A DNA stretch of 33,457 nucleotides from Stramenopiles sp. TOSAG23-6 (lineage: Eukaryota), in NCBI GenBank assembly GCA_900128565.1, contig LT635954.1:1-33457 (forward strand). Reading direction: 5' to 3'. Position numbers and translations under genes: made by a program. The notes beneath the pieces were generated by a model. That model was not told the origin of the DNA, did no database searches, and saw only the letters and a program-made list of their open reading frames with translations. Below are positions 1 to 27,281 of the stretch, piece after piece; position 1 is the first letter of the stretch, and each line of letters starts with the position of its first letter.

Positions 1-61
1 ACGAAATTTTGTACCTAACAAAAATTAAGTTTTTTTTTTGAAATATTTTTCCAAAATACAT
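1..61 (+). other. 3' part of non-canonical intron (sirtuin)
   Basis: acgaaattttGTACCTAAC (11-19)…ttgaaatatttttccaaaatacat, then sirtuin coding sequence. Near-identical to the 3' half of intron 7354..7450. Exact end uncertain (57-62). Confidence 0.75.
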
Positions 62-62
62 T

Positions 63-1110
63 TGTGGTGGACTAATCAAACCAGATATTACATTTTTTGG
101 TGAGAATATTCCAAAACAGGTTGCAAATCTTCTGACCAAAGATCGAAGCAAAGCTGATCTTTTACTTGTGATGGGCACTTCACTTCAAGTAGCTCCAATG
201 TTAGTTTTCATCATGAATTTCAAATTTATTTTTTTTTACTATGAAAATTTTGTACCTAATGAATTTCAAACTATACACATACTATCCAAAAAAATATGAG
301 TTCTGTGTTGGGTTTTTTACCTGGTCATGTTCCTCAAATTCTCATTAACTTGAAACCTATAAAGATCGAAAAGCAACATAAAAGTGATGGATTTGACGTT
401 GAACTATTAGGAGAAAGTGATTCTATCATTCAAGTATGTTTCAATTTCGAATTTCGATTTTTTTTTTGAAATTTTTTTTTTAAATATTTTTTTGAAATTT
501 TTTTTTCCTAGAACATTTTATACCTAACGACTTTTTTTTGTCAAATATTTCTTCACAAGACGTTATTTAGTGAAACGATTACACGATGACGAAAATTCTA
601 GATTAAACAATAAAAAAAATAAATCAAAAAAGAAAATCATTCAATGGACTCTTCCAGAATCACTTCATTGTCAACGCACTGAAAATATTAACGTACCAAT
701 TCGACTGTCGGAGAGGCGGTTTGGCTTGTTTGTTGTCCACTTTACTTTCAAATTTATTTTCTTTTGTACCAAATTTCGTACCTAACGGAATGTGGTTTTT
801 GAATATTTTTTCACGATATTTCTTTTCAGGTACCAATGAAATGCTTTATAGAGAATCCATGAATAATAATGATAGTAATAATAATGTTGTAGTTGAAGAC
901 AAATCTGTATGTTTTGATTATAAGTGTGACTCATGTGGGAAGACTATTTGTATAAAAAGATCTAGTTGTACTATTTGTTTTGATTTTGATTTGTGTATTG
1001 ATTGTGCTCTGAATGGAGAAGCAGAGGCGCATACAAAAGAATTTAGTGACAAAAATACATCAACCAATGATGAGAAATATTTTCATGTTTTTCATCAATT
1101 TTCTATATGA
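63..1110 (+). CDS. Class I sirtuin (Sir2/SIRT1-like NAD-dependent deacetylase), 5'-partial, with C-terminal ZZ-type zinc finger; exons ~63..199, 298..433, 564..723, 821..1110
   Basis: Manual translation gives CGGLIKPDITFFGE…ADLLLVMGTSLQVAP|MSSVLGFLPGHVPQILIN…FDVELLGESDSIIQ|YLVKRL, matching Sir2 motifs KPDITFFGE, GTSLxVxP, VPQxLIN and LLGxxD. The last exon has CDSC…CTICFDFDLCIDC…H (ZZ pattern). Confidence 0.9.
200..297 (+). other. Non-canonical intron GT…AT (98 nt), sirtuin
   Basis: gttagt…gtacctaat(252-260)…aaaatat. Removal gives QVAPMSSVLGFLPGHVPQ, with the same 8-residue P-to-P spacing as Sir2/SIRT1. The GAG at 298-300 would give one residue fewer. Confidence 0.8.
434..563 (+). other. Non-canonical intron GT…GT (130 nt), sirtuin
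   Basis: gtatgt…tacctaac(521-528)…agacgt. Removal gives GESDSIIQYLVKRL, colinear with SIRT1 GDCDVIINELCHRL. The AGs at 559 and 570 are out of frame with donor 434. Confidence 0.72.
724..820 (+). other. Intron of the same family (~97 nt), boundaries ambiguous (GC…TT, GC…AT at 817, GC…AG at 829, or 719..815 GT…CG)
   Basis: Frame changes between ORF 570..785 and ORF 721..1110; gtacctaac at 778-786. The 724..820 splice yields RFVFSG, resembling SIRT1 RYIFHG. Confidence 0.6.
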
Positions 1111-1161
1111 ACATAAATAAGCATCTTTAATTCTTTATAATAAAATGTTACAATATTTATT

Positions 1162-3165
1162 TTAAATCTTTTGATATTCTTCATATAAAATCTTATCTGA
1201 ATAAGACAGGGATGTTCCAATGACGCCAGGAATTCGATGAGCCGGTGATAATCGTTTCAAATCCCAATATTTCATACCAAATTCCTTACCTAAAAAATGT
1301 TTCTCTCTTTGATCTCCACATTTTAGTCCATCCTCGTTAATAGCGACTGGAATATAATTTTCAAGAATTTTGATACACGAAATACAACAAATACAAGGTA
1401 TAAAATATGAACGAAAACTTTCTATACCTAATTCTATACTTAATTGTGGATTTTGTACATACTTTTGTTCTGGGTCTATTGTACTGACACCACTTGGCAA
1501 ATTCGAAATTGATTTTTCTTTGCATAAGTATGCAACATACCCAAAACCACTGGATACTTTTTTCTTACACATAGGACAACAATCTAAACAATTTACAGCT
1601 TTTTCTTCAATATCTAAAACACATTCTTTTGTTACTCGAGTAAATGGTCCTGTCAATACAATTTGTGTACTACATTTCTCAAAATCTTCATTTGTTCCAT
1701 TCATTGAAAGCATATACATCAATTCTTGAGCTTTTTGTGTTGTTTCTACATTATTTAATTTTTGTTTTTCAACTGTTTTATCATTATTACAATTATTATT
1801 CTCCACTATTTTACAATTCATTTGACTTGTATCAGATAATTCATTGTATCCTGGAATACCCATAAGACGAAACATAGTACCACTCAAGCAGTAGGAAATC
1901 TTCATATTATGTGTAACTGCATTTCTTAAGTCATTCGACATTATGTCAGATGTTTCGATAAAAGAATCTAAATCTTTCTGAGTTTGAGTAATAATGTTTT
2001 GACAAATCTGTATTGCACGATTACAGTCAATTATTTGATGACGTGCATCCCATCCTTGTGCCACAGCCGCATGATATGACTTCAAAGCATTTTTAAATCT
2101 ACGCAATGCAGTCATAATATAATTACTCCCATTACGAGAATGCATATACCCTGAAAAGTGAACGGCAGGAACCTTGAGCACGTTTGGTAACTTTGGTGGA
2201 TCTATTAAACAATTCCACATTGTTTGACAGAGCATAGCACTATTGAAGTTAAGTGCAGCCCATTCGAAACAATGAGATGTACGATATGGCTTTAATATCT
2301 TTAGCAAATCTTCAAAACGAGAACTGGCCTCAGTAAATGCAAGATTAGTCTCTAGGGAACGGAGATGATTAAGTCGTTGAACTTCCATAGAGAGTGCAGA
2401 TAAAATACACTCTACTGATGACGGGATATTGTTCACAATTGTATTGGTATTCTCTTTTTCTATAGGTTTGTCGTTTTGTAAAACTGTTGACGGGATATTG
2501 TTCACAATTGTATTGTTATTCTCTTTTTCTATAGTTTTGTCATTTTTAATACCATTGGAACTATGAGAAGGAACCTCTACACTATCACTAACACTGTCAA
2601 TACGTTTAGTCATCTTTGGTGGAACCGTGTCCTCATCAATTTTAGCAATCGCAGCTGCAACAGCTTCTTCATTTGATGATCCAGAAGCAAGCGCATCATG
2701 GGCTGCCTGCATACCTAGACGTAAGGACACTTCTGGGGAAATAGCTGCTGTGCACTTGGAATCTTTTGATGAAGATTTGACAGGAACTGGTTGTAAAGCT
2801 TCAAAAGCTTCAATCGTAGCGGCTGCAGCGGCGGCAGCTGCCTTTTCTTTAGTTTTCCCGCCTGCCAAGGCTATCCTACCCGCAGCAAGACCAGCATTTT
2901 TAGCTTTTTCAATCACTTCATTACTACATAATTGTGCTTGCCTATTTCCACTTTGAACCGCGGATTTCTTTCTTGCTGCCTGACAAGCTCTTTTGTGAAA
3001 CTTCCATATCTTCATCTGACACGCTCGACCACAAAAGTGTACGAGACGACAGCCAGAGCACCGAAGGAGATTTGCCTTTGTTACACCACACGCAAGACAC
3101 TTTCTAACCACTCGTAATACATCATTTGTCTTATTCAAAGATTGAGAATCACAAGCCACTGTCAT
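1162..3165 (-). CDS. MYND-type zinc finger protein (667 aa)
   Basis: N-terminal CLAC…CSGCRLVHFCGRACQMKIWKFHKRAC fits the zf-MYND consensus; long uninterrupted ORF. Confidence 0.85.
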   Translation of the reverse strand: MTVACDSQSLNKTNDVLRVVRKCLACGVTKANLLRCSGCRLVHFCGRACQMKIWKFHKRACQAARKKSAVQSGNRQAQLCSNEVIEKAKNAGLAAGRIALAGGKTKEKAAAAAAAATIEAFEALQPVPVKSSSKDSKCTAAISPEVSLRLGMQAAHDALASGSSNEEAVAAAIAKIDEDTVPPKMTKRIDSVSDSVEVPSHSSNGIKNDKTIEKENNNTIVNNIPSTVLQNDKPIEKENTNTIVNNIPSSVECILSALSMEVQRLNHLRSLETNLAFTEASSRFEDLLKILKPYRTSHCFEWAALNFNSAMLCQTMWNCLIDPPKLPNVLKVPAVHFSGYMHSRNGSNYIMTALRRFKNALKSYHAAVAQGWDARHQIIDCNRAIQICQNIITQTQKDLDSFIETSDIMSNDLRNAVTHNMKISYCLSGTMFRLMGIPGYNELSDTSQMNCKIVENNNCNNDKTVEKQKLNNVETTQKAQELMYMLSMNGTNEDFEKCSTQIVLTGPFTRVTKECVLDIEEKAVNCLDCCPMCKKKVSSGFGYVAYLCKEKSISNLPSGVSTIDPEQKYVQNPQLSIELGIESFRSYFIPCICCISCIKILENYIPVAINEDGLKCGDQREKHFLGKEFGMKYWDLKRLSPAHRIPGVIGTSLSYSDKILYEEYQKI
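2419..2547 (-). repeat. 69-bp (23 aa) coding tandem duplication in MYND gene
   Basis: tgacgggatattgttcacaattgtattg at 2419 and 2488; encodes NDKxIEKENxNTIVNNIPS twice. Confidence 0.85.
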
Positions 3166-3496
3166 TATACTAAAACTAACCAGTAATAATAAACACGTAG
3201 TTATATCAGGTCCTCTGGTGGTAAGGCCTACTACTATAATACCCTTTTGGAAGAGACTACTAGCTACACGGGATGGTATACTGGTACAGTGTACGAGTTC
3301 GTTTGATTGATGATGATGGATGTTTGGCTTTTTTTTTGGGTTGAACTTGAACTTGACCCCACGAAATCGAAATCGCCCATTTTTTTGCGGCCGTTAAAAA
3401 AAGATCCACTACTGGTGAAATAATCTACCTAGTCAGTTAAAGAAAACTTTTCAAGAATTGCAAAGCTTCTTGCAGTATACATTACACAGGGCTTCA

Positions 3497-4831
3497 ATGG
3501 TAATTGTATCAAAAATGAATGTCTTTCTTTGTCTCGCATTGGTTGTGATGTGCTATTCTGCCGATACTGCCGATTTGGTATTTAGGGTTGTACCAACAGG
3601 ATTTGTTGTAAGTGGGCCCACCGCAGAACAACAAAAGGAAATCACCAAGGACAACATTATGACTCCCGGGAGCCGAATGCACCAATGGAAATTTATTGAT
3701 AAACCAAGGATTGAGGCAGACTTTTTAGAGCCAGTACCATTATCTGGAAAGAAGCTGTATAGATCATGCGACAAATTTGGTGCTTATCCTGAAGGGAAAC
3801 GTGATTTTGAAATTTTGACTGGAGAAACCACCCGAAACGACGTTTACATTGTTCCCTTTCTTGATAACCGGGTAAAAGTGCAGGAGCTTTACTGCCGCTC
3901 CAAAGCTACAAGAAGTAATCCAAAAGTCTCGGTGTATGAATATACAGGTAAAGACGGAAAGAGACTCTTCAACTTCTCAAACGAATTGGCAAAGGAATTA
4001 TGGAACTATCAAGAGACTGAAAAAGGACCGTTTATTTTTCGTGCTTTTTTGAGTGGTGCTTTTGGTTATAAAAATGGTCATGGACAAGTGCAAAGAAGTA
4101 CACATCATAGTCCTTCGAAAAAATATTTAAAGAATGAAAGGCATGGTGACCCGCTGTTTTATATTTGGATGTGGCACAATTTGCATGAGTTCTACGATGG
4201 CTTTGTAACTGAGCAGTCGAACTGTGGAGCAAAAGAGTATGTCATATTTGCGCAGCTTTCTCCGCGTAAAGCAAATAAAGGTGGAACAATTTCTTTTGAA
4301 ATTCCATTAGATGATAAGTATGAATTCGAAGTTGACAGATACGTAGAACGAGGCGATAAAGGTGGAGCGGGGCGTCATGGTCTAAGATTTGGTGGAGTAC
4401 ATCCTAGACCACTCTTGCGTAAGCCACCTACCGCGAGTTCGGCTCTATTTGGACAGCCGTCAGACAGATCTGCAAGCCTATTTGAAGGTGGAGCAATGTC
4501 ATCCTCATCTGCAGGCCGATCTGCAAGTGGAGGACGTCGTAGACCACGCTTGCCCTTGGTTAAGCGTAAACGTGATGAAGTGGAGCCTGATTGGAAAAGG
4601 TCGGACGATCGTGCACGTGGTATTGCGAGTATGGCAGCTTTTAATCCACCATCACCATCAGAAGAACGGGGAAGTCTTGCATCTGCGCCTGAGCTGTCTT
4701 CTCCATGGTCATCTGAGCAACTTCCTCAAGCTTTATCTGGTGCTAGTACATTTGCTGAATCTATGGCATCATCTACAACTGCAGCATCTCGTCCAATGAC
4801 TCCGCCTGATGGCGGGTGGAGCACCCCATGA
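3497..4831 (+). CDS. Hypothetical, probably secreted protein with Ser/Arg/Pro-rich disordered C-terminus (start ATG 3497 or 3515)
   Basis: Long ORF; hydrophobic signal-like MNVFLCLALVVMCYSA; no family recognised. Confidence 0.7.
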   Translation: MVIVSKMNVFLCLALVVMCYSADTADLVFRVVPTGFVVSGPTAEQQKEITKDNIMTPGSRMHQWKFIDKPRIEADFLEPVPLSGKKLYRSCDKFGAYPEGKRDFEILTGETTRNDVYIVPFLDNRVKVQELYCRSKATRSNPKVSVYEYTGKDGKRLFNFSNELAKELWNYQETEKGPFIFRAFLSGAFGYKNGHGQVQRSTHHSPSKKYLKNERHGDPLFYIWMWHNLHEFYDGFVTEQSNCGAKEYVIFAQLSPRKANKGGTISFEIPLDDKYEFEVDRYVERGDKGGAGRHGLRFGGVHPRPLLRKPPTASSALFGQPSDRSASLFEGGAMSSSSAGRSASGGRRRPRLPLVKRKRDEVEPDWKRSDDRARGIASMAAFNPPSPSEERGSLASAPELSSPWSSEQLPQALSGASTFAESMASSTTAASRPMTPPDGGWSTP

Positions 4832-4967
4832 AATTCGCAAGAGTTTTGGTTGTAAATTATAACAATGGGAAGACTAAAAAAACAAACTTTTGAATATATA
4901 TAAACATTTTTTTTATAAAATTTTCATACTCGTGGATTATATAATATATTTTATATGATATATCTAA

Positions 4968-5181
4968 ATTTTGAGAAATCTTCAAAGAAAGTGTATTCAT
5001 TAATATATATAGCTATAGTACTATGATAATGTATGTGATTAATATCAACGATTGTAATACACTACAACATGTCATTATTCTAAGAAAGAATCATGATTTC
5101 AAAAAATTATTACATCATATGAACAATTTTTATAAATTTCCAACAAATTTCAAATTTAATCATTTTTTAGTAGTACCGGGT
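4968..5181 (+). repeat. ~210-bp AT-rich direct repeat, copy 1
   Basis: attttgagaaatcttcaaagaaagtg…tttaatcattttttagtagtaccgggt; highly similar to 5955..6176. Confidence 0.92.
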
Positions 5182-5293
5182 AATATTATTCTGATTTTCA
5201 AATTGTGTTTCACCAGCGTCTCACCAGCTCGAGGTCGGTCTGACAAGCAAAAAGTGTTACTAGTAGTACGTACCCTACGACTACTTTCATAAA

Positions 5294-5800
5294 ATGGTAA
5301 AAATTAATAAGATTGCAGCAAAAAAGAAGACTGTACGGCGTACAACCCCTTACCGGTTAGGCCGTATGCGCGCGCGGGCAATGCGGGCACTCCGGGTTCC
5401 AAAAAAAGGATGGGCCGCCTTACATTATGCTGTATATGGCGGTCATGTTGAAGTAGTTGGACTACTTCTTGGTAAAGGTGCTAATGTCAATCAGGCTGAT
5501 GAATTGGGAAGAACCCCATTGTGGATTGCTTCAGCGAATGGTCGTGTGGGAGTAGTTGAAAAACTCCTCAAAGTAAAGGGAATTAAGATAAATCAGACTA
5601 ATCCTAATTTCGGAATTAATCCATTGTATGCTGCTTCACTGAATGGTCATCCAGAAGTAGTTCGACTACTTCTTGAGAATGGTGCTAATGTCAATCATGT
5701 TGATGAAGACGGGCGCACCCCATTGTGGATTGCTTCAGCGAGTGGTCATGCTGAAGTAGTTGGGCAACTTATTGCTGCTGGTGCAGATGTCAATAAATAA
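5294..5800 (+). CDS. Ankyrin-repeat protein (4 repeats), C-terminally truncated, possibly decaying
   Basis: G-x-T/A-P/A-L-H/W/Y…G-H-x-E-V-V-x-x-L-L-x-x-G-A-x-V-N repeats; a fifth repeat continues out of frame after the stop. Confidence 0.85.
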   Translation: MVKINKIAAKKKTVRRTTPYRLGRMRARAMRALRVPKKGWAALHYAVYGGHVEVVGLLLGKGANVNQADELGRTPLWIASANGRVGVVEKLLKVKGIKINQTNPNFGINPLYAASLNGHPEVVRLLLENGANVNHVDEDGRTPLWIASASGHAEVVGQLIAAGADVNK

Positions 5801-5954
5801 GGCTGACAATGACGGAAATACCCCATTGTATATTGGTATATATTGCTTGCAAAAAAAGGCAGAAGAATGAAAGTTTGATATAGGATTGAATGTTTTTAAT
5901 TTAGAATTTGACGCTATTCTTTAAATAAAAACACCATCAATCTTCAAATTTTTG

Positions 5955-6176
5955 ATTTTGAGAAATCTTCAAAGAAAGTGATTAATTAATATATATAGCT
6001 ATAGTACTATGATAATGTGTATCATTTATATCAACGATTGTAATACACTACAACATGTCATTATTCTAAGAAAATATCATTATTTCAAATAAATTATTAT
6101 GTCATATGAACAATTTTTATAAATTTCCAACAAATTTCAAATTTAATCATTTTTTAGTAGGTATAGGGTACCGGGT
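5955..6176 (+). repeat. ~210-bp AT-rich direct repeat, copy 2
   Basis: Similar to 4968..5181 and also ends in gtaccgggt. Confidence 0.92.
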
Positions 6177-6275
6177 GAACGAAAAAAAATAACTGACATT
6201 AAAACGGACAAACGGATACTCGAGCTTCAAGGCTACTACAAATACTAAAAAAGATTTTTAGTTACAAAAGCCAGA

Positions 6276-7755
6276 ATGTCTGCTCCCAGAGGTCCCCGAT
6301 TCAACTTTGGTTCTGCATCTGATCGAGATAGTATAGTATATGGCTGCTGTGAACCTGGGTTTAAACATCCCGAGGTAGGTACACCAAGGACTCCGAGGAC
6401 TGCTCCAACAAATTTGAGTTCTGTCGAGACCTGGGCTTCATTTATGAAAAGTGCAAAAATATCTCGAGTAATTGTCCTGCTTACTCCGGAAGAATATTCT
6501 TTCTTTGAAACATCATTGTTATCAACATATAGAGAACATTTTAGTACTGTCATTCGTGTGGCACCGTATACAGAAGGATCGCTTGAAGGTTTACTAAGAG
6601 CCTTCAGTGACGCCGAAGAAGCAGGAGAAAAAGTTGTCGTCCACTGCGCAACTGGCCAAGGAAGAACCGCAGATGCATTGGCTCTATGGTTACACCATCG
6701 ATATAATCTTAGTGTAAGTGATGCCGTGGAAGAAATATCGCTTCATGCTAAAAAAATACGTACTTTAAGACGACCGACTGTCAGTGGTTTATTGAAGATT
6801 CTTGAACCAAATTTACGACCGCCTCAAATGGGTCAAAATTTGTTGAGAAATTCGCATTCAGAGTACGGTATGCTGACATCACGCAGTGCATATAGTGGAA
6901 TGACTCCAAGATTACCTATAGCTACACCACTCTCATCATCAGATTCATTGGTATCTTCTGAAGATACGAAAAAAGTTGATAAAAACCAATTTCACGTTAC
7001 ATTAATTCAAATGGGAGGGACTATTGACAAAATGTATCCAGTGGGTGATGGTAGCGAACCTAATGGTGGTGCAAAAGCTATGATTGGCGATTCTGCTACA
7101 GCACGATTATTTGCGTTACTTCCAATTGGATTTACGTATGACGTCATTTCCCTATGTCGTCGGTCAGGTACTGCAAAAAACGAAGATTTAAATCGTTTAG
7201 TTAGAATATGTAGTATCGCAGAATCCAACAAGATTCTTGTGACACACAGTGAAGAAGGAATGGTTCAAACAGCACAATATTTACGACAGAACATTTTAGC
7301 AGCAGGTAAACATGGTGCGCTTTCAAAGAAAACAATTGTTTTCACTGGTGCATGTATGTTTTTTTTTTTTTTTCAAATTCCAAATTTGTTTTTCGTACGA
7401 AATTTTGTACCTAACAATAATTTTTTTTGAAATATTTTTCCAAAATATATTTATTCCAGAAGTCTACAAAGCCTCTGATGCTGATTTTAATGTTGGTGTT
7501 TCTGTTGGTGCATTGAATGTTTTAAAACGTGGCGTTTTTATTTGTATGAATGGTCGAGTATTTGAGTCTTCAAGATGTCAAAGAATAGAAAAAACTGGAT
7601 TTTTCACTTCTATTCCAGGTCAAAAACGAGTACCTAGTCATATAAACAAATCATCTATACCAAGTATCACTGACAAAGGCTTAAAATCTCCAAAGAAATC
7701 TACGAAAAAGCTTCAGACCAAACCACCTCCTACAATACCACATTCAAGAGGGTAA
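6276..7755 (+). CDS. Fusion of a Cys-based (CX5R) protein-tyrosine/dual-specificity phosphatase domain and an asparaginase-like domain; exons 6276..7353, 7451..7755 (460 aa)
   Basis: VVVHCATGQGRT P-loop, followed by asparaginase N-domain motifs MGGTIDK, ILVTH, IVFTGA|FIP…SDADFNVG…GVFICMNG, restored by splicing. Confidence 0.85.
7354..7450 (+). other. Non-canonical intron GT…AT (97 nt)
   Basis: gtatgt…gtacctaac(7407-7415)…caaaatatat. Removal restores TGAFIP (asparaginase TGAxxP). The nearest CAG (7459) would create an in-frame TAA. Confidence 0.88.
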
Positions 7756-7831
7756 AAGTTTTGCAGATATAATATAATATAATATAAAATAAACCGATAT
7801 TTTTTCTTTATTTGTTTTTTTTGAATCAAAG

Positions 7832-8689
7832 TCATTTCCAAGATAAACTTTTACTATCAATAACAGAAATTCCCGCTTCAGTTGCAAACGATAAAAACTC
7901 CTGAGCATTAGCTTCAAACCCAGATACAGGTGATTGACAATCTTCAAGTAAGAATATATCACGTAATCGTTCTTTTGGCCAACGAGGAACCATATCCCGA
8001 ACTGTAAAATTTACACAATGGCTCATGGCCTGTCCACAAACTAACACACGATTTGCACGAAGAAGTCGAGCAAGAAGCTTTTCATCGTAAAAGGTACGTG
8101 GGTCTGAATCAACAGGAACATCTGCTCTAAATGCACTGTAACATTCAGTTAACATATTGTTTCCTTTTATAAAGTAATGAACTGTTCGACTTTCTTTTTC
8201 TGCCTGCTTCACCCACTTGTCAAGGGCATCATTGATTGAGTCTACAACATTGTGACCACGTGTACCGATGAGACAATGCTCAGGCCAAATACAAAGCTTA
8301 AAACGACCTTGCTTTTCCAACTCTTGACAATATTTCAGCCCCCAGGTCTTGTGAGAGGGATTTCTAGTAGTCCATTTTCCCGAAGTAATATCTTCTGAGG
8401 TAATGATTGTAAATGGTTCAGGAGATGCTCCAGTAGCAGTACTCACCCAAAATCCAGGATGTGCAATGTGCATAGCTTCATGTGTATCCAGAGTTATAAT
8501 AATATCGTTGATTTTATCGCCGTGTGTTGCGATCATGTCAGCAATTCGCGAAGCATCGGCGTCTGCAGTTTCTATGGCTAGCGAGCCACCTGGATGGAAA
8601 TCTACTTGAGGATCAATGATAAACAATGTGGTTCCACCAGACTCGGGAAGCGTGGGAGTGCCATAAAAGTCTGTGCTAGGTGCCTCCAT
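7832..8689 (-). CDS. Nicotinamidase/isochorismatase-family cysteine hydrolase (PncA/Pnc1-like)
   Basis: IIDPQVDF…GSL…LDTH…WPEHC…KG…YSAF…GQAMSHCV contain the Asp/Lys/Cys triad and metal-ligand motifs; first ATG at 8689. Confidence 0.85.
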   Translation of the reverse strand: MEAPSTDFYGTPTLPESGGTTLFIIDPQVDFHPGGSLAIETADADASRIADMIATHGDKINDIIITLDTHEAMHIAHPGFWVSTATGASPEPFTIITSEDITSGKWTTRNPSHKTWGLKYCQELEKQGRFKLCIWPEHCLIGTRGHNVVDSINDALDKWVKQAEKESRTVHYFIKGNNMLTECYSAFRADVPVDSDPRTFYDEKLLARLLRANRVLVCGQAMSHCVNFTVRDMVPRWPKERLRDIFLLEDCQSPVSGFEANAQEFLSFATEAGISVIDSKSLSWK

Positions 8690-8891
8690 TGTCGGTAAGT
8701 TTTGTTCTAGTGTCAAAAAAAACAAAGCTTAATGGATAGATTGCGTCTTCTTGAAGGCTTTTAGTAATATTCTTCTTAAACTTTACTTTACATGACGAGT
8801 GAAGAAGGCGTGAAGAAGCTGCGAGGTGTCAAATTTGACCCGAACCGAGATGATTGATTGGTGCAGTTACCGGGTACCCGGTTATCTGAAA

Positions 8892-10364
8892 ATGGTTCCG
8901 GGGTTTTCAAATGCAATTAATATTTGCAACTCAATTCCGAAAATGACTCCTTCGATTGATGCCGAAAGGCAAGCAGTACTCGATGCCAAAGCAAAATTAC
9001 AACATGCTCAGCAGCAGCTGAAACTGGCCAAAGATCGTATGCAGCAACTAGAACCAGCATGGACGACTGGTTATACTTTTCACCACCTGATGGAGCTGGT
9101 CGATCCATACTCAGAGAGTTTTTGCTATGCACTGCAAGAAGCGCAAAAGTTGATGGATGAAAAAGGGAAAGCACATGCTATCCTTTCTTTAATAAAGCGA
9201 AATGAAGATGTACTTTTTTTCAGAGAAGTAATAAAAGAGTTAGTGAGGTTCAAAGATCCCGAAATAACCAAACCATTTTGGAATCACAAAGAAGAACCAT
9301 ACTTTACCGAACCATACTTTACCGTCGATTTCTTGCAGGAGCAGGCCAATATTTTGATCGCGGCGTTTCCCCACAGCCAAGCTCAGGGACTTGACAAAAT
9401 CGAAGCTCTCTCTCTCCAGAAGCATGGAAATGAAGAAATTTTTAAGCAGACAATTATTAAGATATTGGAAAGTTATTTTGAGGTGGGAGATGAGTACATC
9501 TTAAACAACGAATTGATAGAAGCGGCCATAGGGGCTTCGGAAAAACTAAGGACGACATGTCGATTGTATGGTTATGCAGAGTCGAAACTGCAGGACGCAG
9601 CTGATAGAGCAGCCGTTGCTGCAGCCAGAGCTGCCAGAGCTGCACCTGCCATTGATTTTACGATGGAGATTAGGTGGGCTAATATGGAAGGACCTATAGA
9701 AATATACCCATTTACCACTGCCGTTGATGCTGCACGTTTCATACACGCAGTGATTGAACGATATTGTGACACAAGTTTTGACCGTGATCGGCCGCCACTA
9801 GGACCACGAGGTAATTATGACTACTATACATGCATTTGTGGGGGGTATGGAACAGTTCGTCAAAAAAATCAAGCTGGTGGTGGTTGGAAGGAAATTAATG
9901 CAGCCTTTGAAGCACTAAAAGGCACATTAGATACACCAAAAGATAAACTGTTATTGCGTTTATGGTTAGAGCGATTAAAAGACGAGTCTTGGGAAAAGTG
10001 GGACAAGGAAAGACATCTCGAAGAAGTAGAAGAACAAGAACAGCAGGAGGCAGACGATGCACTGAAGGAGGTATGTAAAAGTGATAGTATTAGTACACTA
10101 CTGGCTGCAATCAAGATAGCTGAGGAGAAAGGTATCGTGAGTGAGTCATGTCTAGAAAGCGCTAACGAGTGCTTGGAGTACTTGCAAGAGCAGGAGGCAG
10201 ACGATGCACTGAAGGAGGTATGTAAAAGTGATAGTATTAGTACACTACTGGCTGCAATCAAGATAGCTGAGGAGAAAGGTATCGTGAGTGACTCATGTCT
10301 AGAAAGCGCTAACGAGTGCTTGGAGGACTTGCAGGAAGCGGAGCAAAATAAGAAAAACCATTGA
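8892..10364 (+). CDS. Hypothetical helical protein with 49-aa C-terminal tandem duplication (start uncertain: 8850/8892/8943)
   Basis: Long ORF with coiled-coil-like segments; no family recognised. Confidence 0.72.
   Translation: MVPGFSNAINICNSIPKMTPSIDAERQAVLDAKAKLQHAQQQLKLAKDRMQQLEPAWTTGYTFHHLMELVDPYSESFCYALQEAQKLMDEKGKAHAILSLIKRNEDVLFFREVIKELVRFKDPEITKPFWNHKEEPYFTEPYFTVDFLQEQANILIAAFPHSQAQGLDKIEALSLQKHGNEEIFKQTIIKILESYFEVGDEYILNNELIEAAIGASEKLRTTCRLYGYAESKLQDAADRAAVAAARAARAAPAIDFTMEIRWANMEGPIEIYPFTTAVDAARFIHAVIERYCDTSFDRDRPPLGPRGNYDYYTCICGGYGTVRQKNQAGGGWKEINAAFEALKGTLDTPKDKLLLRLWLERLKDESWEKWDKERHLEEVEEQEQQEADDALKEVCKSDSISTLLAAIKIAEEKGIVSESCLESANECLEYLQEQEADDALKEVCKSDSISTLLAAIKIAEEKGIVSDSCLESANECLEDLQEAEQNKKNH
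10042..10333 (+). repeat. 147-bp near-perfect coding tandem repeat (2 copies)
   Basis: gcaggaggcagacgatgcac at 10043 and 10190; encodes QEADDALKEVCKSDSISTLLAAIKIAEEKGIVS… twice. Confidence 0.93.
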
Positions 10365-10431
10365 AAATTGGAATCCCACCATATATTGAGGGGGAAACAT
10401 AACAGCACTGGCTAAATAAAAAAAATTCCAT

Positions 10432-11472
10432 TTATTTTTCCCATGCCTTTTTTGCAATATTTAATACTTCATCTTTAATATATCCATTGTCTTCTGCAGC
10501 ACATTCCGGCATTAGTCCTGAAGATGTTCCATTCATCTCTAATATAAATTCCTTCCCTGTTTCTTCACAGTGTATAGCATCAACTGTTACAATAGTAAGT
10601 CCACCAAAACATTTCGCAGCTTCATCCACCCATAATTTATATCTTTCATTCATTTCAATCTCTTCAATAACACTTGCTCCTACATTCGTCTTCCAGTTTC
10701 CAGAGACAGATCGACGCTGAAATACTCTATAATGACATTTGGAGTCATCCAGACCAATTCTTTGAATACGTAAATCAAACGCACCATTTATAAAAGGCTC
10801 TACAGTACAATATTGATTTGTTGTTGCCAGGATTGATTTTACATCATCAAATCGATTTTTATTTTCTATCTTGATTTTACCATAACCCGCTTGGCCATGA
10901 CCAATTTTGCAAACTACCGGGAAGTCCTCCCACCACATCATGTTACCATGATTTTCATAATACGATTGAGGAATTACTGGGAAGACATCCTCTCCCAATC
11001 TGCTTCGAATTGTTAGAAGAGACGCATGGCTGATAGGTCGCTCGCAAAACATAATAATTGATTCCCAACTATTTAGCGAAGGAACTTGCGAATACATGAA
11101 CCCATATAAAATTTTCCGCCAATCCGTACCTGCACCAACGCCTCTCACTTCGTTTCTTACGAGAACAAAATCGGGTTTAATAAGTTTACGCGAATCGAAG
11201 CGTGGACCATTCTTTGAGCGTACACGAATATGTACAAGCACAGAAGGTGATGCGCCTTTCTCACAGCTTGATGTTAGACTAATGTCAGACCAACCGCACT
11301 GTTCTATAATAATTTCATGATTTTTACCACTAACCATCAAAGTACGCGACGAAGCAAAAATTGCTATCCAATTTGTTTCACCACCATCGATTACAAGAAT
11401 CGTTTTTTTTGGTAAACACGGCGAAGGTGGATTCGAAGGTGCAGGTGACTTTGAGAGCATTCTTTTCAACAT
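10432..11472 (-). CDS. Synapsin-like ATP-grasp protein (synapsin C domain)
   Basis: ILVID, KPDFVLVR, PSLNS, FPVVCKIGHGQAGYGKIK, EPFI…DLRIQRIG, RRSVSGNWKTNVG and RYKLWVDE…FGGL all match the synapsin C domain. Confidence 0.9.
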   Translation of the reverse strand: MLKRMLSKSPAPSNPPSPCLPKKTILVIDGGETNWIAIFASSRTLMVSGKNHEIIIEQCGWSDISLTSSCEKGASPSVLVHIRVRSKNGPRFDSRKLIKPDFVLVRNEVRGVGAGTDWRKILYGFMYSQVPSLNSWESIIMFCERPISHASLLTIRSRLGEDVFPVIPQSYYENHGNMMWWEDFPVVCKIGHGQAGYGKIKIENKNRFDDVKSILATTNQYCTVEPFINGAFDLRIQRIGLDDSKCHYRVFQRRSVSGNWKTNVGASVIEEIEMNERYKLWVDEAAKCFGGLTIVTVDAIHCEETGKEFILEMNGTSSGLMPECAAEDNGYIKDEVLNIAKKAWEK

Positions 11473-11769
11473 TTGTAGGTGAACGAAGAAGGTTGGTGAA
11501 GGACTCCGGCTCGACCTTCAAAATATTTTTCGTTGACTTCAAGCGAGTCTCACACAACAATATAAATAGTGAGTTAGTAACTGTTGTCCTATTCGCGACT
11601 GACGCGCTGTCATTTTTTGACTCATTTTTTTTTTTGACTCATTTTGATTCCGAAAGTCAAAAAAGAGGAGCGAGCTTCGTATCTACGACAACAACAATCA
11701 TAATGGATAAATGAATTTAAATCACTGGAGATACGACGCCAGGAGTTTATTTCTTGGGGTATAGGTAAT

Positions 11770-14020
11770 ATGATTGATACATCGAAGTTTTCAGTGCAAC
11801 AACTGAAGAACCAGTTGAAAAAGTATAATCTTGAGGTGGACGATACAACAGATGTAGAAGAAACTTTGGTTCGCGACTCCTTAGAACGTAAACTTCAAGA
11901 AGTACTCACACGCAGTGCAGAACCATACAAGTGGTTTACGTGTCAAGCTTTAGGAGATTTCCGACCTACTCTTCGCGAAACCGTAGGTGCGTGTGTACAT
12001 AAGGATACCTTGTACGTTTTTGGAGGATACTCAAATGGAAGGCGTCTGAATACTTTAGAAATGTATAATTTCAAAGAGAGAAAATGGAAAAAAGTAAAAT
12101 CCAAAGGAACACCACCAAAAGAACGTAGTTGGGTTTCTACTGTAGTGTATAAAGATGAGTGTATTATTGCCTTTGGAGGTCTTGGTGAAAACAGTTGTTT
12201 TTCAGATGTTCACAAATTTACTTTTGCCAACCAAACCTGGACTGAAGTGACATGTACGTTTTCATCATTCCTTTTCAATTTATTTTTTTATACCAAATTT
12301 CGTACCTAACGAATTTCAAATTGTTGAAATTGTTTTTTACAATGCATGTACAGGTTGTGTACCCGAAGAAAGGTCAAAAGTTGATGCATGTATTGTTGGT
12401 GATATATTATATATCTACGGGGGTAAGAATTGGGATGAAATTGCATTAACGGACCTTTATCAACTTGATCTCTCGGCAACTCCTGAACCAATTTGGACAA
12501 AATTGGAACTGTTGGGAAACGGTCCGAATCGAGCAATAAATAACGTTGATGGACTAATCCATCAAATGTTTTATAATGGACATCTTGTTGTTTTCTGGAA
12601 TGGTGTCATTTTTTTTCTACATCTAGAAACCAAAACTTGGCGTCGAAAAATAACGTTTGGAAAGTCACCAAAGTGTATGTTCTATTTTTTTTCAATTTTG
12701 ATTTTTTTTCATACGAAATGTTGTACTTAACGATTTTTTTTTGAAATACTTTTCTAAAATACATGTAAAAGCAGACCAAATGGTACAGGAATTGTGCTAC
12801 ACAACAACAATTTATTAGTATTTCAGTCAGGTGAAACAAATCTAGATACTCAGTCTGAACCACCATACGCGATATTTTCAGTAGTTAATGTTCTAAATAC
12901 GTTTTCATCATTCACTTCATTTTTATTTTTGTAAAGAAACATTTTGTACCTAACAAATGTTTGTACTTGAAATATTTTTTCACAGCATCTATTTAAAAAC
13001 ATTTGAATGGAAAACAGTGAAAACTTCCAGGTATCCTACATCTAGGCTTGGTGCTTCTTGTGTTGTGTATAATGATTGCCTATATTGTTTTGGTGGTTCT
13101 GTTCGTTGTCCTGATACAAACTGGGAAAAGAATCATCATGTACATTTTCAAAATTAAATATAAAAGTTACTTTTTTTGTACCAAAACTTGTACCTAACAT
13201 TTTTTTTGAAGCAAAAAACAATTCTTTCACAATACATGTTGCTACCGATAGCATAGGTGGTTATGCTTATTTAGGTGATTTAAATGGAATGACGCTCGAA
13301 AAGTCAGATTTATCTACACCATATTCGAAATTTGTTCATAATAGGGAATACTGTGACGCTATATTTATTTGTCAAACCCAAAGGTTTTACACGCACAAAA
13401 TAGTTCTTGCGTCTCACAGTGAATATTTTAAAGGATTATTTTCTTTCCCGAGAACTTGGAAATACGATCTTAAGCAGAATTTTGATGGGCAATGTGACAG
13501 TGATGTGGGTAAAGATGTGTACGATGTCAGCGAAGTAACTCCCGAGACGTTTCTTGCTATACTGCAACATTGTTATGATTGCCTTGATTTTGAAGAAACA
13601 GAAATTGATGCCTTGGAACTATTAGAATTTGCGGACAAATATATGTTGTCATCTTTGAAAGATACATGTATTTCACTAATTGCACAAAATTTAGACTGTG
13701 ATAACGTACTTGCAGTATTAACATTGACACAAGGGCGAAATATGAGAGGATTAGCATTGTTGTGCACAAGTTACATCTCCAAACATTTTCAAGATGTTGT
13801 ATCAACACCTGCATTTATAGATTTATGCCAAACGCAACCTCATTTAGTGCAAAACTTATGCAAATATAACACAGCGACAACACTACGGGACAAACGAAAA
13901 GCTCTACTGTCGACAGATATAGATGTAGATATAATTAACTTTAGCCCGGATAAAAATAATAAATTGATTGAAGTATCTGAAAGTTCTCAAAATAAAATGA
14001 AAAAGAGGCGCGCCACATAA
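11770..14020 (+). CDS. Kelch-repeat + BTB/POZ(-BACK) protein (LZTR1-like order) with possible N-terminal SAP-like motif; exons 11770..12253, 12348..12674, 12765..12896, 12991..13139, 13238..14020 (~624 aa)
   Basis: Kelch motifs LYVFGG, IIAFGG, LYIYGG, LYCFGG and GxxPxxR; BTB motifs HKIVLASHSEYFKGLF and ELLEFADKYML. The exons join in frame after removal of four family introns. Confidence 0.88.
12254..12347 (+). other. Non-canonical intron GT…AT (94 nt)
   Basis: gtacgt…gtacctaac(12302-12310)…aatgcat. Gives EVTCTGCVPEER, keeping the kelch GxxPxxR. CATGTAC is repeated at both junctions. An in-frame CAG at 12353 is an alternative. Confidence 0.78.
12675..12764 (+). other. Non-canonical intron GT…AT (90 nt)
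   Basis: gtatgt…gtacttaac(12723-12731)…aaatacat; contains an in-frame TAA. The AGs at 12771 and 12774 are out of frame with this donor. Confidence 0.78.
12897..12990 (+). other. Family intron (~94 nt), best read AT…CT; alternatives 12901..12988 GT…AT or 12901..12985 GT…AG
   Basis: atacgttttcatcattc matches the donor gtacgttttcatcattc of 12254; gtacctaac at 12946-12954. The 12897..12990 splice gives kelch-like VLNLKTFEWK. Confidence 0.62.
13140..13237 (+). other. Non-canonical intron GT…AT (98 nt)
   Basis: gtacat…gtacctaac(13190-13198)…caatacat; phase-0 join to the BTB frame. The downstream AGs (13251, 13256, 13274) are all out of phase. Confidence 0.82.
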
Positions 14021-21688: not shown

Positions 21689-21985
21689 ATTACCTATACC
21701 CCAAGAAATAAACTCCTGGCGTCGTATCTCCAGTGATTTAAATTCATTTATCCATTATGATTGTTGTTGTCGTAGATACGAAGCTCGCTCCTCTTTTTTG
21801 ACTTTCGGAATCAAAATGAGTCAAAAAAAAAAATGAGTCAAAAAATGACAGCGCGTCAGTCGCGAATAGGACAACAGTTACTAACTCACTATTTATATTG
21901 TTGTGTGAGACTCGCTTGAAGTCAACGAAAAATATTTTGAAGGTCGAGCCGGAGTCCTTCACCAACCTTCTTCGTTCACCTACAA

Positions 21986-23026: not shown

Positions 23027-23093
23027 ATGGAATTTTTTTTATTTAGCCAGTGCTGTTATGTTTCCCCCTCAATATATGGTGGGATTCCAATTT

Positions 23094-24566: not shown

Positions 24567-24768
24567 TTTCAGATAACCGGGTACCCGGTAACTGCACCAA
24601 TCAATCATCTCGGTTCGGGTCAAATTTGACACCTCGCAGCTTCTTCACGCCTTCTTCACTCGTCATGTAAAGTAAAGTTTAAGAAGAATATTACTAAAAG
24701 CCTTCAAGAAGACGCAATCTATCCATTAAGCTTTGTTTTTTTTGACACTAGAACAAAACTTACCGACA

Positions 24769-25626: not shown

Positions 25627-25702
25627 CTTTGATTCAAAAAAAACAAATAAAGAAAAAATATCGGTTTATTTTATATTATATTATATTATATCTGCAAAAC
25701 TT

Positions 25703-27182: not shown

Positions 27183-27281
27183 TCTGGCTTTTGTAACTAA
27201 AAATCTTTTTTAGTATTTGTAGTAGCCTTGAAGCTCGAGTATCCGTTTGTCCGTTTTAATGTCAGTTATTTTTTTTCGTTC

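What the first reader, a model, noticed from the sequence alone, without database searches (positions are those of the whole stretch)
1..13237. Introns in unrelated genes share long identical tracts: introner-like mobile origin
Seen: 1-21 equals 7397-7417 (acgaaattttgtacctaacaa). The tract ttttttttgaaatatttttccaaaata (27 nt) is in both the first sirtuin intron and the phosphatase intron. taccaaatttcgtacctaacg occurs at both 767-787 and 12291-12311. gttttcatcat lies just inside the 5' end of the introns at 200, 12254 and 12897. This exceeds what splice signals normally need. Established: introners (e.g. in Micromonas, Aureococcus, dothideomycete fungi) are transposon-derived families of similar introns. 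Inference: one introner family may have spread and carried its own non-AG splice signals. No transposase is in the window.
Basis: partly seen in the sequence, partly recalled or inferred. Interest (0 to 1): 0.72.

Follow-up and report, generated by a model that had tools for sequence, protein, structure and literature searches.

The report
Look-alike introns that end in AT
Nine short introns in three unrelated genes of an uncultured marine protist are copies of one sequence family and seem to be cut out at a GT...AT boundary instead of the near-universal GT...AG, which would explain why the public gene model for one of these genes is mis-spliced.

Summary
All four quoted identities exist at the stated places. 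They are far above chance: 183 shared 14-mer pairs against 2.3 in controls, and 12 of 22 exact repeats of 14 nt or more are intron-to-intron.

All nine introns in the non-redundant 20 kb belong to one family of 88-130 nt with 18-28% GC. The layout is a GTAYGT-type donor, a T-rich TTTCAAATTT block, a roughly 21-nt core holding the branch-like box GTACCTAAC, a TTGAAATATTTT block, and a YAT 3' end 33-42 nt after the box. All 28 intron pairs beat shuffles (z 3.6-15.6). Half of the pairs still do so with the splice signals masked.

The 3' ends are not AG. This rests on orthologue and solved-structure alignments plus reading frames for I0, I1, I4, I5 and I8. The deposited 99%-identical model forces GT-AG and deletes nine conserved residues. 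The I4 position is uninterrupted in 17 of 17 orthologous loci.

Mobility itself is not shown. I found no copy-specific target duplications, no non-genic copies and no further copies in public contigs, and I obtained no RNA reads. The window is also a 13.2-kb perfect palindrome, probably an assembly or amplification artefact.

The parts
1..61 (+). I0: 3' part of an intron of the sirtuin gene. The window starts inside it. Box at 10-19; ends CAT at 59-61.
   Evidence: 87% identical to I4 over 63 nt. There is an in-frame stop at 39-41. The only AG dinucleotides in 1-100 are at 28 and 83. The Cys codon at 63-65 aligns with the last zinc Cys of SIRT2.
200..297 (+). I1: sirtuin intron, GTTAGT...TAT, 98 nt, box at 251-260 (CTAAT variant).
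   Evidence: In frame. Yeast Sir2 residue 271 aligns with both the M before and the M after the intron. APMSSVLGF...VPQILIN therefore has the Sir2 length, and the GT-AG alternative (200-300) is one residue short.
434..563 (+). I2: sirtuin intron, GTATGT..., 130 nt, box at 519-528. The family-aligned end is CGT at 563. By my reading of the sequence, an in-frame TAT end lies 3 nt further, at 566.
   Evidence: Alignment. The frame is kept. The first AG (559) is out of frame. The 3' end is not resolved.
732..819 (+). I3: intron before the ZZ-finger exon, ...CACGATAT, 88 nt, box at 777-786. The donor is uncertain (GTTGTC at 732, GTCCAC at 735, or GTACCA at 693).
   Evidence: It shares an exact 21-mer with I5. 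The frame is kept with a phase-0 donor. The AG at 829 is out of frame.
7354..7450 (+). I4: intron in the phosphatase/asparaginase-like gene, GTATGT...ATATAT, 97 nt, box at 7406-7415.
   Evidence: Spliced this way the protein reads FTGAFIPEVYKASDADFN. All 6 orthologues read have TG/TC, then Pro at the same place, then SD..FN, and 5 of the 6 have the same length. The first AG gives a TAA stop. All five GT-AG rescues delete conserved residues.
12254..12347 (+). I5: Kelch-BTB intron, GTACGT...GCAT, 94 nt, box at 12301-12310. A 7-nt repeat CATGTAC spans both junctions.
   Evidence: WTEVTCTGCVPEERS matches the spacing and the Gly of orthologue P0019 (WSEIEADGEPPTARS). GT-AG gives TCCVPEERS, which is 2 residues short and lacks the Gly.
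12675..12764 (+). I6: Kelch-BTB intron, GTATGT...ACAT, 90 nt, box at 12722-12731 (CTTAAC variant).
   Evidence: In frame. The family donor has no in-frame AG. GT-AG is possible only with shifted donors. The orthologue's loop length is not decisive.
12901..12988 (+). I7: Kelch-BTB intron, 88 nt, box at 12945-12954. The base homologous to the family donor is ATACGT at 12897, and the usable GT is at 12901. The end is CACAG|CAT, so either AG (12985) or CAT (12988) keeps the frame.
   Evidence: P0019 aligns from 12987 onward. This 3' end is unresolved.
13140..13237 (+). I8: Kelch-BTB intron, GTACAT...ACAT, 98 nt, box at 13189-13198. The inner edge of the 13.2-kb inverted repeat (13202/13203) lies inside it.
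   Evidence: In frame. No in-frame, stop-free GT..AG solution exists within the searched range. The downstream GGYAYLGDL..M.LE is conserved in P0019.
62..1110 (+). Host gene 1: 3' part of a sirtuin gene with a C-terminal ZZ finger. It carries I0-I3.
   Evidence: Pfam SIR2 E=7.3e-13 and ZZ E=1.4e-6. PDB sirtuin hits.
6276..7755 (+). Host gene 2: dual-specificity phosphatase fused to an asparaginase-like domain. It carries I4.
   Evidence: Pfam DSPc. The orthologues carry PF00710 plus PF00782.
11770..14020 (+). Host gene 3: Kelch-repeat plus BTB/BACK gene. It carries I5-I8.
   Evidence: Pfam Kelch and BTB. Orthologue P0019.
20256..33457 (-). Mirror arm: an exact reverse-complement copy of 1-13202, holding identical copies of I0-I7 and of the 5' 63 nt of I8.
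   Evidence: blastn gives 100.000% over 13,202 nt. These are not independent copies.

Best explanation
The nine introns are copies of one lineage-specific intron family, an introner-like element.

Layout of a copy:
- length about 90-100 nt (one copy is 130 nt) and very AT-rich;
- a yeast-like donor GTAYGT;
- a T-rich block (TTTCAAATTTATTT);
- a roughly 21-nt conserved core of the form GTAC(G/C)AAATTT(T/C)GTACCTAAC, whose last 8-9 nt look like a U2-type branch site;
- a pyrimidine-rich block (TTTTGAAATATTTTT);
- a 3' end Y-A-T placed 33-42 nt after the box.

I read them as being removed from the pre-mRNA by a U2-type spliceosome as GT...AT. The -3 pyrimidine and -2 A of a normal YAG acceptor are kept and only the last base is T. 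A G(+1)/U(-1) contact could then replace the usual G/G contact of intron ends in the second catalytic step.

The family most likely arose by multiplication of one element inside genes of this lineage. Whether it spread as DNA (MITE-like) or through RNA (reverse splicing) is open.

Shown here: family membership, similarity beyond the splice signals, non-AG ends in at least five copies, and absence of one intron position from orthologues.

Inferred: spliceosomal removal, the role of the box as branch site, the G/U idea, and multiplication.
For: Family.
- The MAFFT alignment is colinear over the whole length.
- All 28 of 28 pairs of the 8 full-length introns score above every one of 200 shuffles (z 3.6-15.6). 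The median pair score is 54.5, against 12.8 for AT-rich intergenic 95-mers and 17 for reverse-complement pairs.
- With donor, box and the last 4 nt masked, 14 of 28 pairs (5' segment) and 12 of 28 pairs (3' segment) are still reached by 3 or fewer of 300 shuffles. There is subgroup structure: I1/I5/I7 against I0/I4/I6, and I3 shares a 21-mer with I5.
- All 9 introns found in the 20 kb belong to the family.

Non-AG ends.
- The family-homologous 3' end keeps the frame without stops in 8 of 8 introns. The first AG after the box is usable in only 3 of 8, gives TAA in I4, and is out of frame in I2, I3, I6 and I8.
- I4: the orthologue alignment fits.
- I1: Sir2 residue 271 aligns on both sides of the intron.
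- I0: there is no AG between 28 and 83, and a stop lies at 39-41.
- I5: the spacing of orthologue P0019 fits.
- I8: no GT-AG solution exists.
- 3' triplets: CAT in 5 copies, TAT in 3, CGT in 1.
- The deposited model uses GT at 7348 and AG at 7471 and loses GAFIPEVYK.

Lineage-specific.
- The I4 position is uninterrupted in 17 of 17 orthologous loci that cover it. Introns elsewhere in those loci mostly start GT and, where the end is clear, end AG, by eye.
- Intron phases are 3/3/3 for phases 0, 1 and 2, derived by me from the frames.
Against: - There is no RNA evidence. The one read-laying run returned nothing.
- The sample is only 9 introns in 3 genes from one 20-kb stretch.
- Junction direct repeats (0-7 nt) match no better within an intron than between introns, so there is no copy-specific target-site duplication.
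- End-to-end complementarity is 5.6 of 8 within an intron against 5.0 of 8 across introns.
- RNAalifold finds no conserved fold (-1.24 kcal/mol). Only 1 of 7 folded introns has a significant z-score.
- There are no non-genic, antisense or autonomous copies in the window, and no transposase domain.
- No further copies turned up in metagenome, genome or viral contig scans.
- The 3' ends of I2, I6 and I7 are not resolved. I7 can use AG, and I6 can be rescued with a shifted donor.
- If every intron of this organism looks like this, strong functional constraint could mimic a family.
Confidence: 0.6

Rival explanations
1. Lineage-wide constrained intron architecture, with no mobile family. In this organism every spliceosomal intron must carry extended signals (donor, long branch core, fixed box-to-acceptor distance, YAT acceptor, perhaps binding sites for lineage-specific splicing factors). 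Old, unrelated introns would then have converged on one look.
For: All 9 of 9 introns seen carry the layout. The most conserved blocks sit where signals are expected. Junction repeats and terminal complementarity are consensus properties and not copy-specific ones. Introns are concentrated in two conserved genes (sirtuin, Kelch-BTB), while 10 other ORFs have none. No non-genic copies exist.
Against: Similarity persists with the three signals masked and has subgroup structure, with exact 21- and 27-mers shared by particular pairs. Lengths are narrow, 88-106 nt in 7 of 8. The I4 position is absent from 17 of 17 orthologous loci. Phases are even. Convergence of whole 90-nt sequences is not known from organisms with strict signals such as budding yeast (my own knowledge, not tested here).
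Confidence: 0.27
2. Ordinary GT-AG introns, as in the deposited gene model. On this view the apparent non-AG ends are misreadings of where the exons end, and the shared tracts are AT-rich background plus normal signals.
For: In-frame, stop-free GT..AG combinations exist for 7 of 8 introns if donors or acceptors are moved by up to 25-45 nt. The deposited 451-aa model uses one of them. There are no RNA data.
Against: These rescues delete residues that are conserved in orthologues: GAFIPEV in I4 (all 6 orthologues read keep the segment) and the Gly plus spacing in I5. I8 has no rescue and I0 has no AG. The family end is in frame in 8 of 8 introns, where about 1 in 3 is expected by chance. Background is excluded.
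Confidence: 0.05
3. Assembly or amplification artefact. The repeated tracts would be created by chimeric joins or collapsed repeats in a single-cell-type assembly, as the 13.2-kb palindrome suggests.
For: The window is a perfect palindrome whose inner edge and whose first base both lie in family introns.
Against: The nine copies lie within one arm and differ from each other. Each interrupts an otherwise intact, homology-supported reading frame at a different place.
Confidence: 0.03

Closest known systems
Introner elements of Micromonas pusilla and Aureococcus (MITE-like DNA transposons that become introns), and the introner families surveyed across eukaryotes. Sources: review PMC11282704 and PNAS 2022 PMC9860276, passages read. 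The Huff et al. 2016 paper itself is not held.
   Same: Many similar short introns in unrelated genes. They are AT-poorer or AT-richer than the exons around them, genic and in sense orientation. They occur in marine protists. No transposase lies inside the element. Positions are not shared with orthologues.
   Different: Those families use GT/GC-AG and show 3-8 nt target duplications and often terminal inverted repeats. Here the 3' end is YAT, copy-specific duplications are not detectable, and terminal complementarity is only consensus-level. Genome-wide copy number is unknown.
Non-canonical introner elements of the parasitic dinoflagellate Amoebophrya (PMC7789003, passages read).
   Same: Repeated introns with non-canonical borders. 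Short direct repeats overlap the exon/intron boundaries and the two intron ends are complementary. There is no internal transposase. Standard gene predictors fail on them.
   Different: Amoebophrya shows no clear dinucleotide signature and no family-specific motifs. Here the borders are uniform (GT...YAT), with a strong yeast-like donor and branch box. The host is a stramenopile-type organism with about 35-40% GC.
Fritillaria borealis (larvacean tunicate) non-GT/AG introns processed by a modified U2 spliceosome (PMC13326754 and review PMC11282704, passages read).
   Same: This is a precedent that a U2-type spliceosome can evolve to accept non-AG 3' ends on introns thought to derive from MITEs.
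   Different: It is an animal lineage with highly diverse termini, and duplicated U2AF subunits are implicated. Here nothing is known about the splicing proteins, and the 5' end stays canonical.
Euglenid nonconventional introns (review PMC11282704, passage read).
   Same: Non-canonical junctions, TSD-like repeats at the junctions, and intron ends that can pair.
   Different: Euglenid nonconventional introns lack a polypyrimidine tract and a canonical donor, and they depend on a stable terminal stem. Here the donor, a T-rich tract and a branch-like box are present, and no conserved stem is found.
Fungal introner-like elements, and budding-yeast introns with strict GTATGT / TACTAAC signals (recalled; the fungal paper was seen only as a reference).
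   Same: GTAYGT donor and a CTAAC branch core. Fungal ILEs are about 50-110 nt, lack TIR and TSD, and are thought to multiply via RNA.
   Different: Both end in AG. The box here has an extra C (TACCTAAC) and sits inside a 21-nt conserved core.
U12-type (minor) introns, some of which have non-AG ends including rare GT-AT (recalled; the term appears in PMC1557818, seen only as a listing).
   Same: They tolerate non-AG 3' ends, and their branch site is strongly conserved.
   Different: The donor RTATCCTT is absent in 8 of 8. The box lies 33-42 nt from the 3' end, not about 10-26 nt.

Membership tests
Introner / introner-like element | Many introns of similar sequence in unrelated genes | tested here: met
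   9 introns in 3 unrelated genes. 28 of 28 pairs are above all shuffles, and the alignment is colinear. The genome-wide number is unknown.
Introner / introner-like element | Similarity extends beyond the splice signals | tested here: met
   With signals masked, 14 of 28 and 12 of 28 pairs are reached by 3 or fewer of 300 shuffles. Exact 21- and 27-mers are shared.
Introner / introner-like element | Copy-specific target-site duplications at the junctions | tested here: not met
   The junction repeat is 0-7 nt, but the per-position match within an intron equals the match between introns. A fixed target such as AT cannot be excluded.
Introner / introner-like element | Terminal inverted repeats | tested here: inconclusive
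   5.6 of 8 pairs within an intron against 5.0 of 8 across introns, in the register where the last two exon bases pair with the last two intron bases. The MFE pairs the ends in 5 of 7 introns, but z is significant in only 1 of 7.
Introner / introner-like element | Intron positions that are recent, not shared with orthologues | tested here: met
   Tested for I4 only. It is uninterrupted in 17 of 17 orthologous loci covering the site; 18 of the 35 returned loci were examined, and L007/L008 and L009/L010 look like duplicates. The other 8 positions were not tested.
Introner / introner-like element | Copies outside genes, an autonomous partner element, or strain polymorphism | not testable with these tools
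   No genome is held. There were 0 hits in the metagenome and genome contig scans. The viral-contig hits are chance coding matches. No transposase domain is in the window.
U2-type GT-AG spliceosomal intron | 5' GT with a U1/U6-compatible hexamer | tested here: met
   GTATGT in 3 copies, and GTACGT, GTACAT, GTTAGT, GTTGTC and GTTTTC in one each. I7's homologous base is A (ATACGT).
U2-type GT-AG spliceosomal intron | Branch-site consensus upstream of a pyrimidine tract | tested here: met
   CTAAC in 7 of 9, TTAAC in 1 (I6) and CTAAT in 1 (I1), lying 33-42 nt from the 3' end and followed by a T-rich run. Its use as the branch point was not tested.
U2-type GT-AG spliceosomal intron | 3' terminal YAG | tested here: not met
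   Non-AG in I0, I1, I4, I5 and I8 by homology and frame. I2, I3 and I6 are non-AG with the family donor. I7 is undecided.
U12-type intron | Donor RTATCCTT and a branch site close to the 3' end | tested here: not met
   No donor has ATCC, 0 of 8. The box-to-end distance is 33-42 nt.
Amoebophrya-type or euglenid-type non-canonical introns | Non-canonical borders at both ends with a stabilising terminal stem | tested here: inconclusive
   Only the 3' border is non-canonical, and no conserved stem is found. The direct repeats and end complementarity are present only at consensus level.

The most novel reading that the evidence does not exclude
In this uncultured marine stramenopile lineage the major spliceosome has changed its acceptor rule from YAG to YAT. 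A single introner family carrying that acceptor makes up most or all introns of the genome. Consequently the public proteome, predicted under the GT-AG rule, would be wrong at most intron-bearing genes.
Probability: 0.35. Interest if true: 0.9.

Novelty: new variant of a known kind. Interest (0 to 1): 0.76.

Why it matters
The terminal AG of introns is one of the most conserved signals in eukaryotes. Lineages that break the rule (Fritillaria, Amoebophrya, euglenids) do so with heterogeneous ends. A uniform GT...YAT class that keeps a strict donor and branch box would be a clean natural experiment on how the second catalytic step reads the last intron base. It could be tested directly with existing ocean metatranscriptomes.

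It would also add a stramenopile case to the link between introner bursts and spliceosome change.

There is a practical consequence too. Gene models for this group built with GT-AG predictors lose or gain residues at introns. One case is shown here, where nine conserved residues are deleted.

I found no paper in the searchable library that links MAST-3-type genomes with non-canonical introns. The two MAST genome papers I queried have 0 occurrences of 'splice'. Their supplements, and the species tables of the introner surveys, were not visible to me.

Tried and rejected
I therefore have no read evidence for junctions or for the palindrome.
3. No whole genome is held.
4. Scans for further family copies:
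 - Metagenome contigs with the box plus 3' block pattern gave 0;
 - Genome contigs with two patterns gave 0 and 0;
 - Viral contigs gave 4 and 2 hits, all within two conserved viral coding regions, so they are chance matches.
5. Protein searches meant to catch transcript-derived or intron-less alleles of the Kelch-BTB gene found nothing: the BTB exon against longer proteins and Kelch exon 2 against similar lengths.
6. Among the best 150 hits listed by the representative search with Kelch exon 1, only P0019 matched from the N-terminus (41% identity). It decides I5, is compatible with I8, and does not decide I6 or I7.
7. A conserved RNA fold was looked for and not found. RNAalifold gives -1.24 kcal/mol with only a 5-bp hairpin at the box. 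Single folds are significant only for I4 (z -3.39; the others range from -1.2 to +1.1).
8. An AT-AC register was considered and rejected. It needs AT as the last two exon bases, which I6 lacks, and it gives mixed 3' dinucleotides. The GT...AT register is the only one of the allowed slides shared by I1, I4, I5, I6 and I8 that starts with GT.
9. Rfam finds no known RNA family in 1-20300.
10. None of the orthologous loci L005-L026 is enriched for the box; each has 0-2 near matches.

Full report
**What the window is**

The sequence is eukaryotic, gene-dense and about 28-43% GC per kb. It holds 13 recognisable genes in the non-redundant part.

A deposited protein model that is 99% identical to one gene carries a source label pointing to a MAST-3-type marine stramenopile assembly. 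The public runs that hold the stretch are coded-organism DNA runs, seawater metagenomes and seawater metatranscriptomes.

No whole genome is held. Everything below therefore rests on the window, on homologous proteins and loci, and on papers.

**Check of the observation**

All four quoted identities are present.
- 1-21 equals 7397-7417.
- 767-787 equals 12291-12311.
- GTTTTCATCAT lies at 204, 12258 and 12901.
- The 27-mer at 32-58 equals 7421-7447.

In 1-20255 there are 183 pairs of shared non-low-complexity 14-mers more than 200 nt apart, against a mean of 2.34 (maximum 11) in 100 Markov controls. Of the 22 merged exact repeats of 14 nt or more, 12 are intron-to-intron. The other ten are a 215-nt intergenic repeat (five pieces), two ankyrin-repeat matches and three short scattered matches.

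The box TGTACCTAAC with up to 1 mismatch occurs 20 times in the window against 1.62 expected. Ten of these lie in the non-redundant part, and nine of those ten are the nine introns.

The mirror copies are not independent and were left out of all counts except the 20 box hits.

**Anatomy of the family**

Every intron I could find in 1-20255 is in a plus-strand gene.
- I0-I3 are in a sirtuin/ZZ-finger gene.
- I4 is in a phosphatase/asparaginase-like gene.
- I5-I8 are in a Kelch-BTB gene.

Ten other ORFs look uninterrupted.

The eight full-length introns are 88-130 nt long, seven of them 88-98 nt in the register used here, and their GC is 0.18-0.28. They align colinearly in this order:
1. a donor: GTATGT in three copies, and GTACGT, GTACAT, GTTAGT, GTTGTC and GTTTTC in one each;
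2. a T-rich stretch with TTTCAAATTTATTT;
3. a core of the form GTAC(G/C)AAATTT(T/C)GTACCTAAC;
4. a T-run and TTGAAATATTTT;
5. then (C)CAAAATACAT or TTCACAATACAT.

The distance from the box to the inferred 3' end is 33-42 nt.

All 28 pairs score above all 200 shuffles (z 3.6-15.6). The median pair score is 54.5, against 12.8 for AT-rich intergenic 95-mers of the same window and 17 against reverse complements.

I then masked the donor hexamer, the 9-nt box and the last 4 nt. After masking, 14 of 28 pairs in the 5' segment and 12 of 28 in the 3' segment are still reached by 3 or fewer of 300 shuffles. The shared tracts fall into subgroups: I1/I5/I7 at the 5' end, I0/I4/I6 at the 3' end, and I3/I5 at the core. 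The similarity therefore exceeds the recognisable signals.

**The 3' ends are not AG**

I took the family-homologous last column of the alignment as the acceptor.
- With that acceptor, the downstream exon is in frame and free of stops in 8 of 8 introns.
- With the same donors, the first AG at least 8 nt after the box is usable in only 3 of 8 (I1, I5, I7). In each of these it lies 3 or 6 nt from the family end.
- The first AG gives a TAA stop in I4 and is out of frame in I2, I3, I6 and I8.

For I3 and I7 the donor was chosen among alternatives. The unbiased count is therefore 6 of 6, where about one in three would be in frame by chance.

Independent support comes from homology and from the sequence itself.
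- **I4.** Spliced at 7353|7451 the protein reads FTGAFIPEVYKASDADFN. I read six orthologues (of eleven non-self hits). All six have TG or TC, a Pro four residues later, and SD..FN. Five of the six have exactly the same length, and the closest reads LTGAFTPEVNKDSDACFN.
- **I1.** Yeast Sir2 residue 271 aligns both with the Met that ends the upstream exon and with the Met that starts the downstream reading. One ATG is therefore split by the intron. The product has the Sir2 length, whereas the GT-AG alternative is one residue short.
- **I0.** The frame carrying the last zinc Cys (aligned to SIRT2) has a stop at 39-41. The only AGs in 1-100 are at 28 and 83.
- **I5.** Orthologue P0019 (41% identity) has W..(7 residues)G..P..RSKVD. 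This is matched by the GT...AT product and not by the GT-AG product, which is two residues short and lacks the Gly.
- **I8.** No in-frame, stop-free GT..AG pair exists within 30 nt upstream to 15 nt downstream of the donor and 25 nt upstream to 44 nt downstream of the acceptor. The downstream peptide is conserved in P0019.

Register. The junction can slide by 0-7 nt because of short repeats. Among the slides allowed in I1, I4, I5, I6 and I8, only the register GT...AT starts with GT.

The last three bases are CAT (I0, I5, I6, I7, I8), TAT (I1, I3, I4) and CGT (I2, where an in-frame TAT lies 3 nt further). The acceptor therefore reads Y-A-T where Y-A-G is normal.

Three ends are unresolved:
- I2 ends at 563 or 566.
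- I6 can be rescued with a GT 2 nt upstream and an AAAAG or GCAG acceptor, and the orthologue does not decide.
- I7 reads CACAG|CAT, and both cuts are in frame.

The deposited 451-aa model splices 7348 (GT) to 7471 (AG) and so lacks GAFIPEVYK.

**Is it mobile?**

In favour:
- There is one family with subgroups.
- Lengths are narrow.
- Phases are even (three each), derived by me from the frames.
- All copies are in sense orientation inside genes.
- The I4 site is uninterrupted in 17 of 17 orthologous metagenome loci that cover it. I examined 18 of the 35 returned loci, and two pairs look like duplicates.
- By eye, most of the introns that those loci have elsewhere start GT and, where the end is clear, end AG.
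- None of those loci is enriched for the box.

Against, or missing:
- Direct repeats across the junctions (ATG, AT, CATGTAC, TGTA, CATGT, T, and none in two introns) match no better within an intron than between introns. They reflect a shared junction consensus (c)AT|GT(a), not copy-specific target duplications.
- Complementarity between the 5' end (including the last two exon bases) and the 3' end is 5.6 of 8 within an intron against 5.0 of 8 across introns.
- RNAalifold finds no conserved fold. The minimum-energy fold pairs the two ends in 5 of the 7 folded introns (I2 was not folded), but only I4 is significantly stable.
- The window has no non-genic copy and no transposase domain.
- No further copies turned up in the metagenome, genome or viral contig scans.

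Multiplication is thus the best reading but is not shown. The route, a DNA element of MITE type or reverse splicing as proposed for fungal elements, is open.

One hint is untested. The exons between family introns measure 138, 136, 168, 327, 136 and 151 nt. This is about one or two nucleosome lengths, which recalls the linker-insertion pattern reported for Micromonas and Aureococcus introners (mentioned in PMC9860276). With only six exons it is no more than a lead.

**How it most likely works**

The donor and the CTAAC core are of the U2 type. The donor is not RTATCCTT, and the box is too far from the end for a U12-type intron.

Keeping Y at -3 and A at -2 while the last base is T suggests the normal second-step machinery with an altered reading of the final base. 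A G(+1)/U(-1) contact in place of G/G is my inference.

The fixed distance from the box, and the AT|GTAY / RYAT| complementarity of the ends, may help to place the cut.

**Comparison with what is known**

- Introners of Micromonas, Aureococcus and many other aquatic protists share the family character. They use GT/GC-AG and usually show target duplications (PMC11282704 and PMC9860276, passages read).
- Amoebophrya has repeated non-canonical introns with end complementarity and 3-5 nt boundary repeats, but no uniform dinucleotides (PMC7789003, passages read).
- Fritillaria shows that a U2 spliceosome can adapt to non-AG ends (PMC13326754, passages read).
- I found no paper joining MAST-3-type genomes with non-canonical introns. 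The two MAST genome papers I queried contain 'splice' 0 times. Supplements were closed, so species lists of the introner surveys and intron statistics of the single-cell papers may hold something I could not see.

**Verdict**

The non-AG reading is well supported for five of nine copies and compatible with the rest. The introner origin is plausible but unproven. I rate it a new variant of a known kind, with high interest because it can be tested at once with existing transcript data.

**The palindrome**

The inner edge of the 13.2-kb inverted repeat (13202|13203 and 20255|20256) lies inside I8 just after its box. The window's first base lies just before the box of I0. A single inverted join at 20255|20256, followed by re-reading of the same DNA backwards, explains the whole layout. 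This points to an amplification chimera, or to an assembler mis-join through a shared intron repeat, and not to biology. I could not test this without reads.

Noticed in passing
window 1-13202 vs 20256-33457; centre 13203-20255: This is a perfect 13,202-nt inverted repeat around a 7,053-nt unique centre. The inner edge falls inside intron I8 just after its box, and the window's first and last bases fall inside I0. It is most simply one chimeric inverted join (amplification or assembly), possibly through a shared intron repeat. Single Ns lie at 17091 and 18201.
   Followed up: partly
window 7348-7471: The deposited 99%-identical protein model (P0001) splices GT at 7348 to AG at 7471. It thereby deletes nine residues (GAFIPEVYK) that orthologues conserve. 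Gene models of this assembly may be systematically wrong at introns.
   Followed up: yes
window 4968-5182 and 5955-6170: A 215-nt direct repeat (93% identical) flanks the ankyrin-repeat gene at 5294-5800. By eye, the ankyrin reading continues in another frame after the stop at 5798-5800, so the gene may carry a frameshift. This could be a duplicated intergenic segment or a repeat-mediated insertion.
   Followed up: no
window 62-199, 298-433, 564-731, 12348-12674, 12765-12900, 12989-13139: The exons between family introns are 138, 136, 168, 327, 136 and 151 nt, roughly one or two nucleosome lengths. This recalls the linker-targeted insertion reported for other introners. With six exons it is only a lead.
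   Followed up: no
window 17323-17340: Three tandem TTAGGG units (a telomere-type repeat) sit inside an intergenic region.
   Followed up: no
window about 16878-16975: A tandem array of about four copies of a ~23-nt unit (TAGCTAAATATACTGATTTATAT) lies just upstream of the start of the 917-aa Cys-rich ORF on the minus strand.
   Followed up: no
window 10435-11472 (-): This ORF has strong Pfam matches to the synapsin N-terminal and ATP-binding domains (E 7e-20 and 9e-59). A synapsin-like ATP-grasp protein in a protist is unusual.
   Followed up: no
window 10039-10343 and 2414-2549: Two in-frame tandem duplications lie inside coding regions. One has units of about 147 nt at 96% identity, in the 512-aa ORF. 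The other has units of about 68 nt at 92% identity, in the MYND-finger ORF.
   Followed up: no
window 14113-16863 (-) and 3458-4828 (+): A 917-aa Cys-rich repeat ORF (recurring CP.G.YC-like units, by eye) and a 457-aa ORF with a signal-peptide-like start (by eye) have no Pfam match.
   Followed up: no
window 20218-20255 (-): By eye, the small 143-aa gene at the right end of the unique centre has its ATG about 37 nt from the palindrome junction. On its strand the junction reads box...ATTTCTAG|. If the join is real, this gene would have a 5'-UTR intron of the same family that ends in AG.
   Followed up: no
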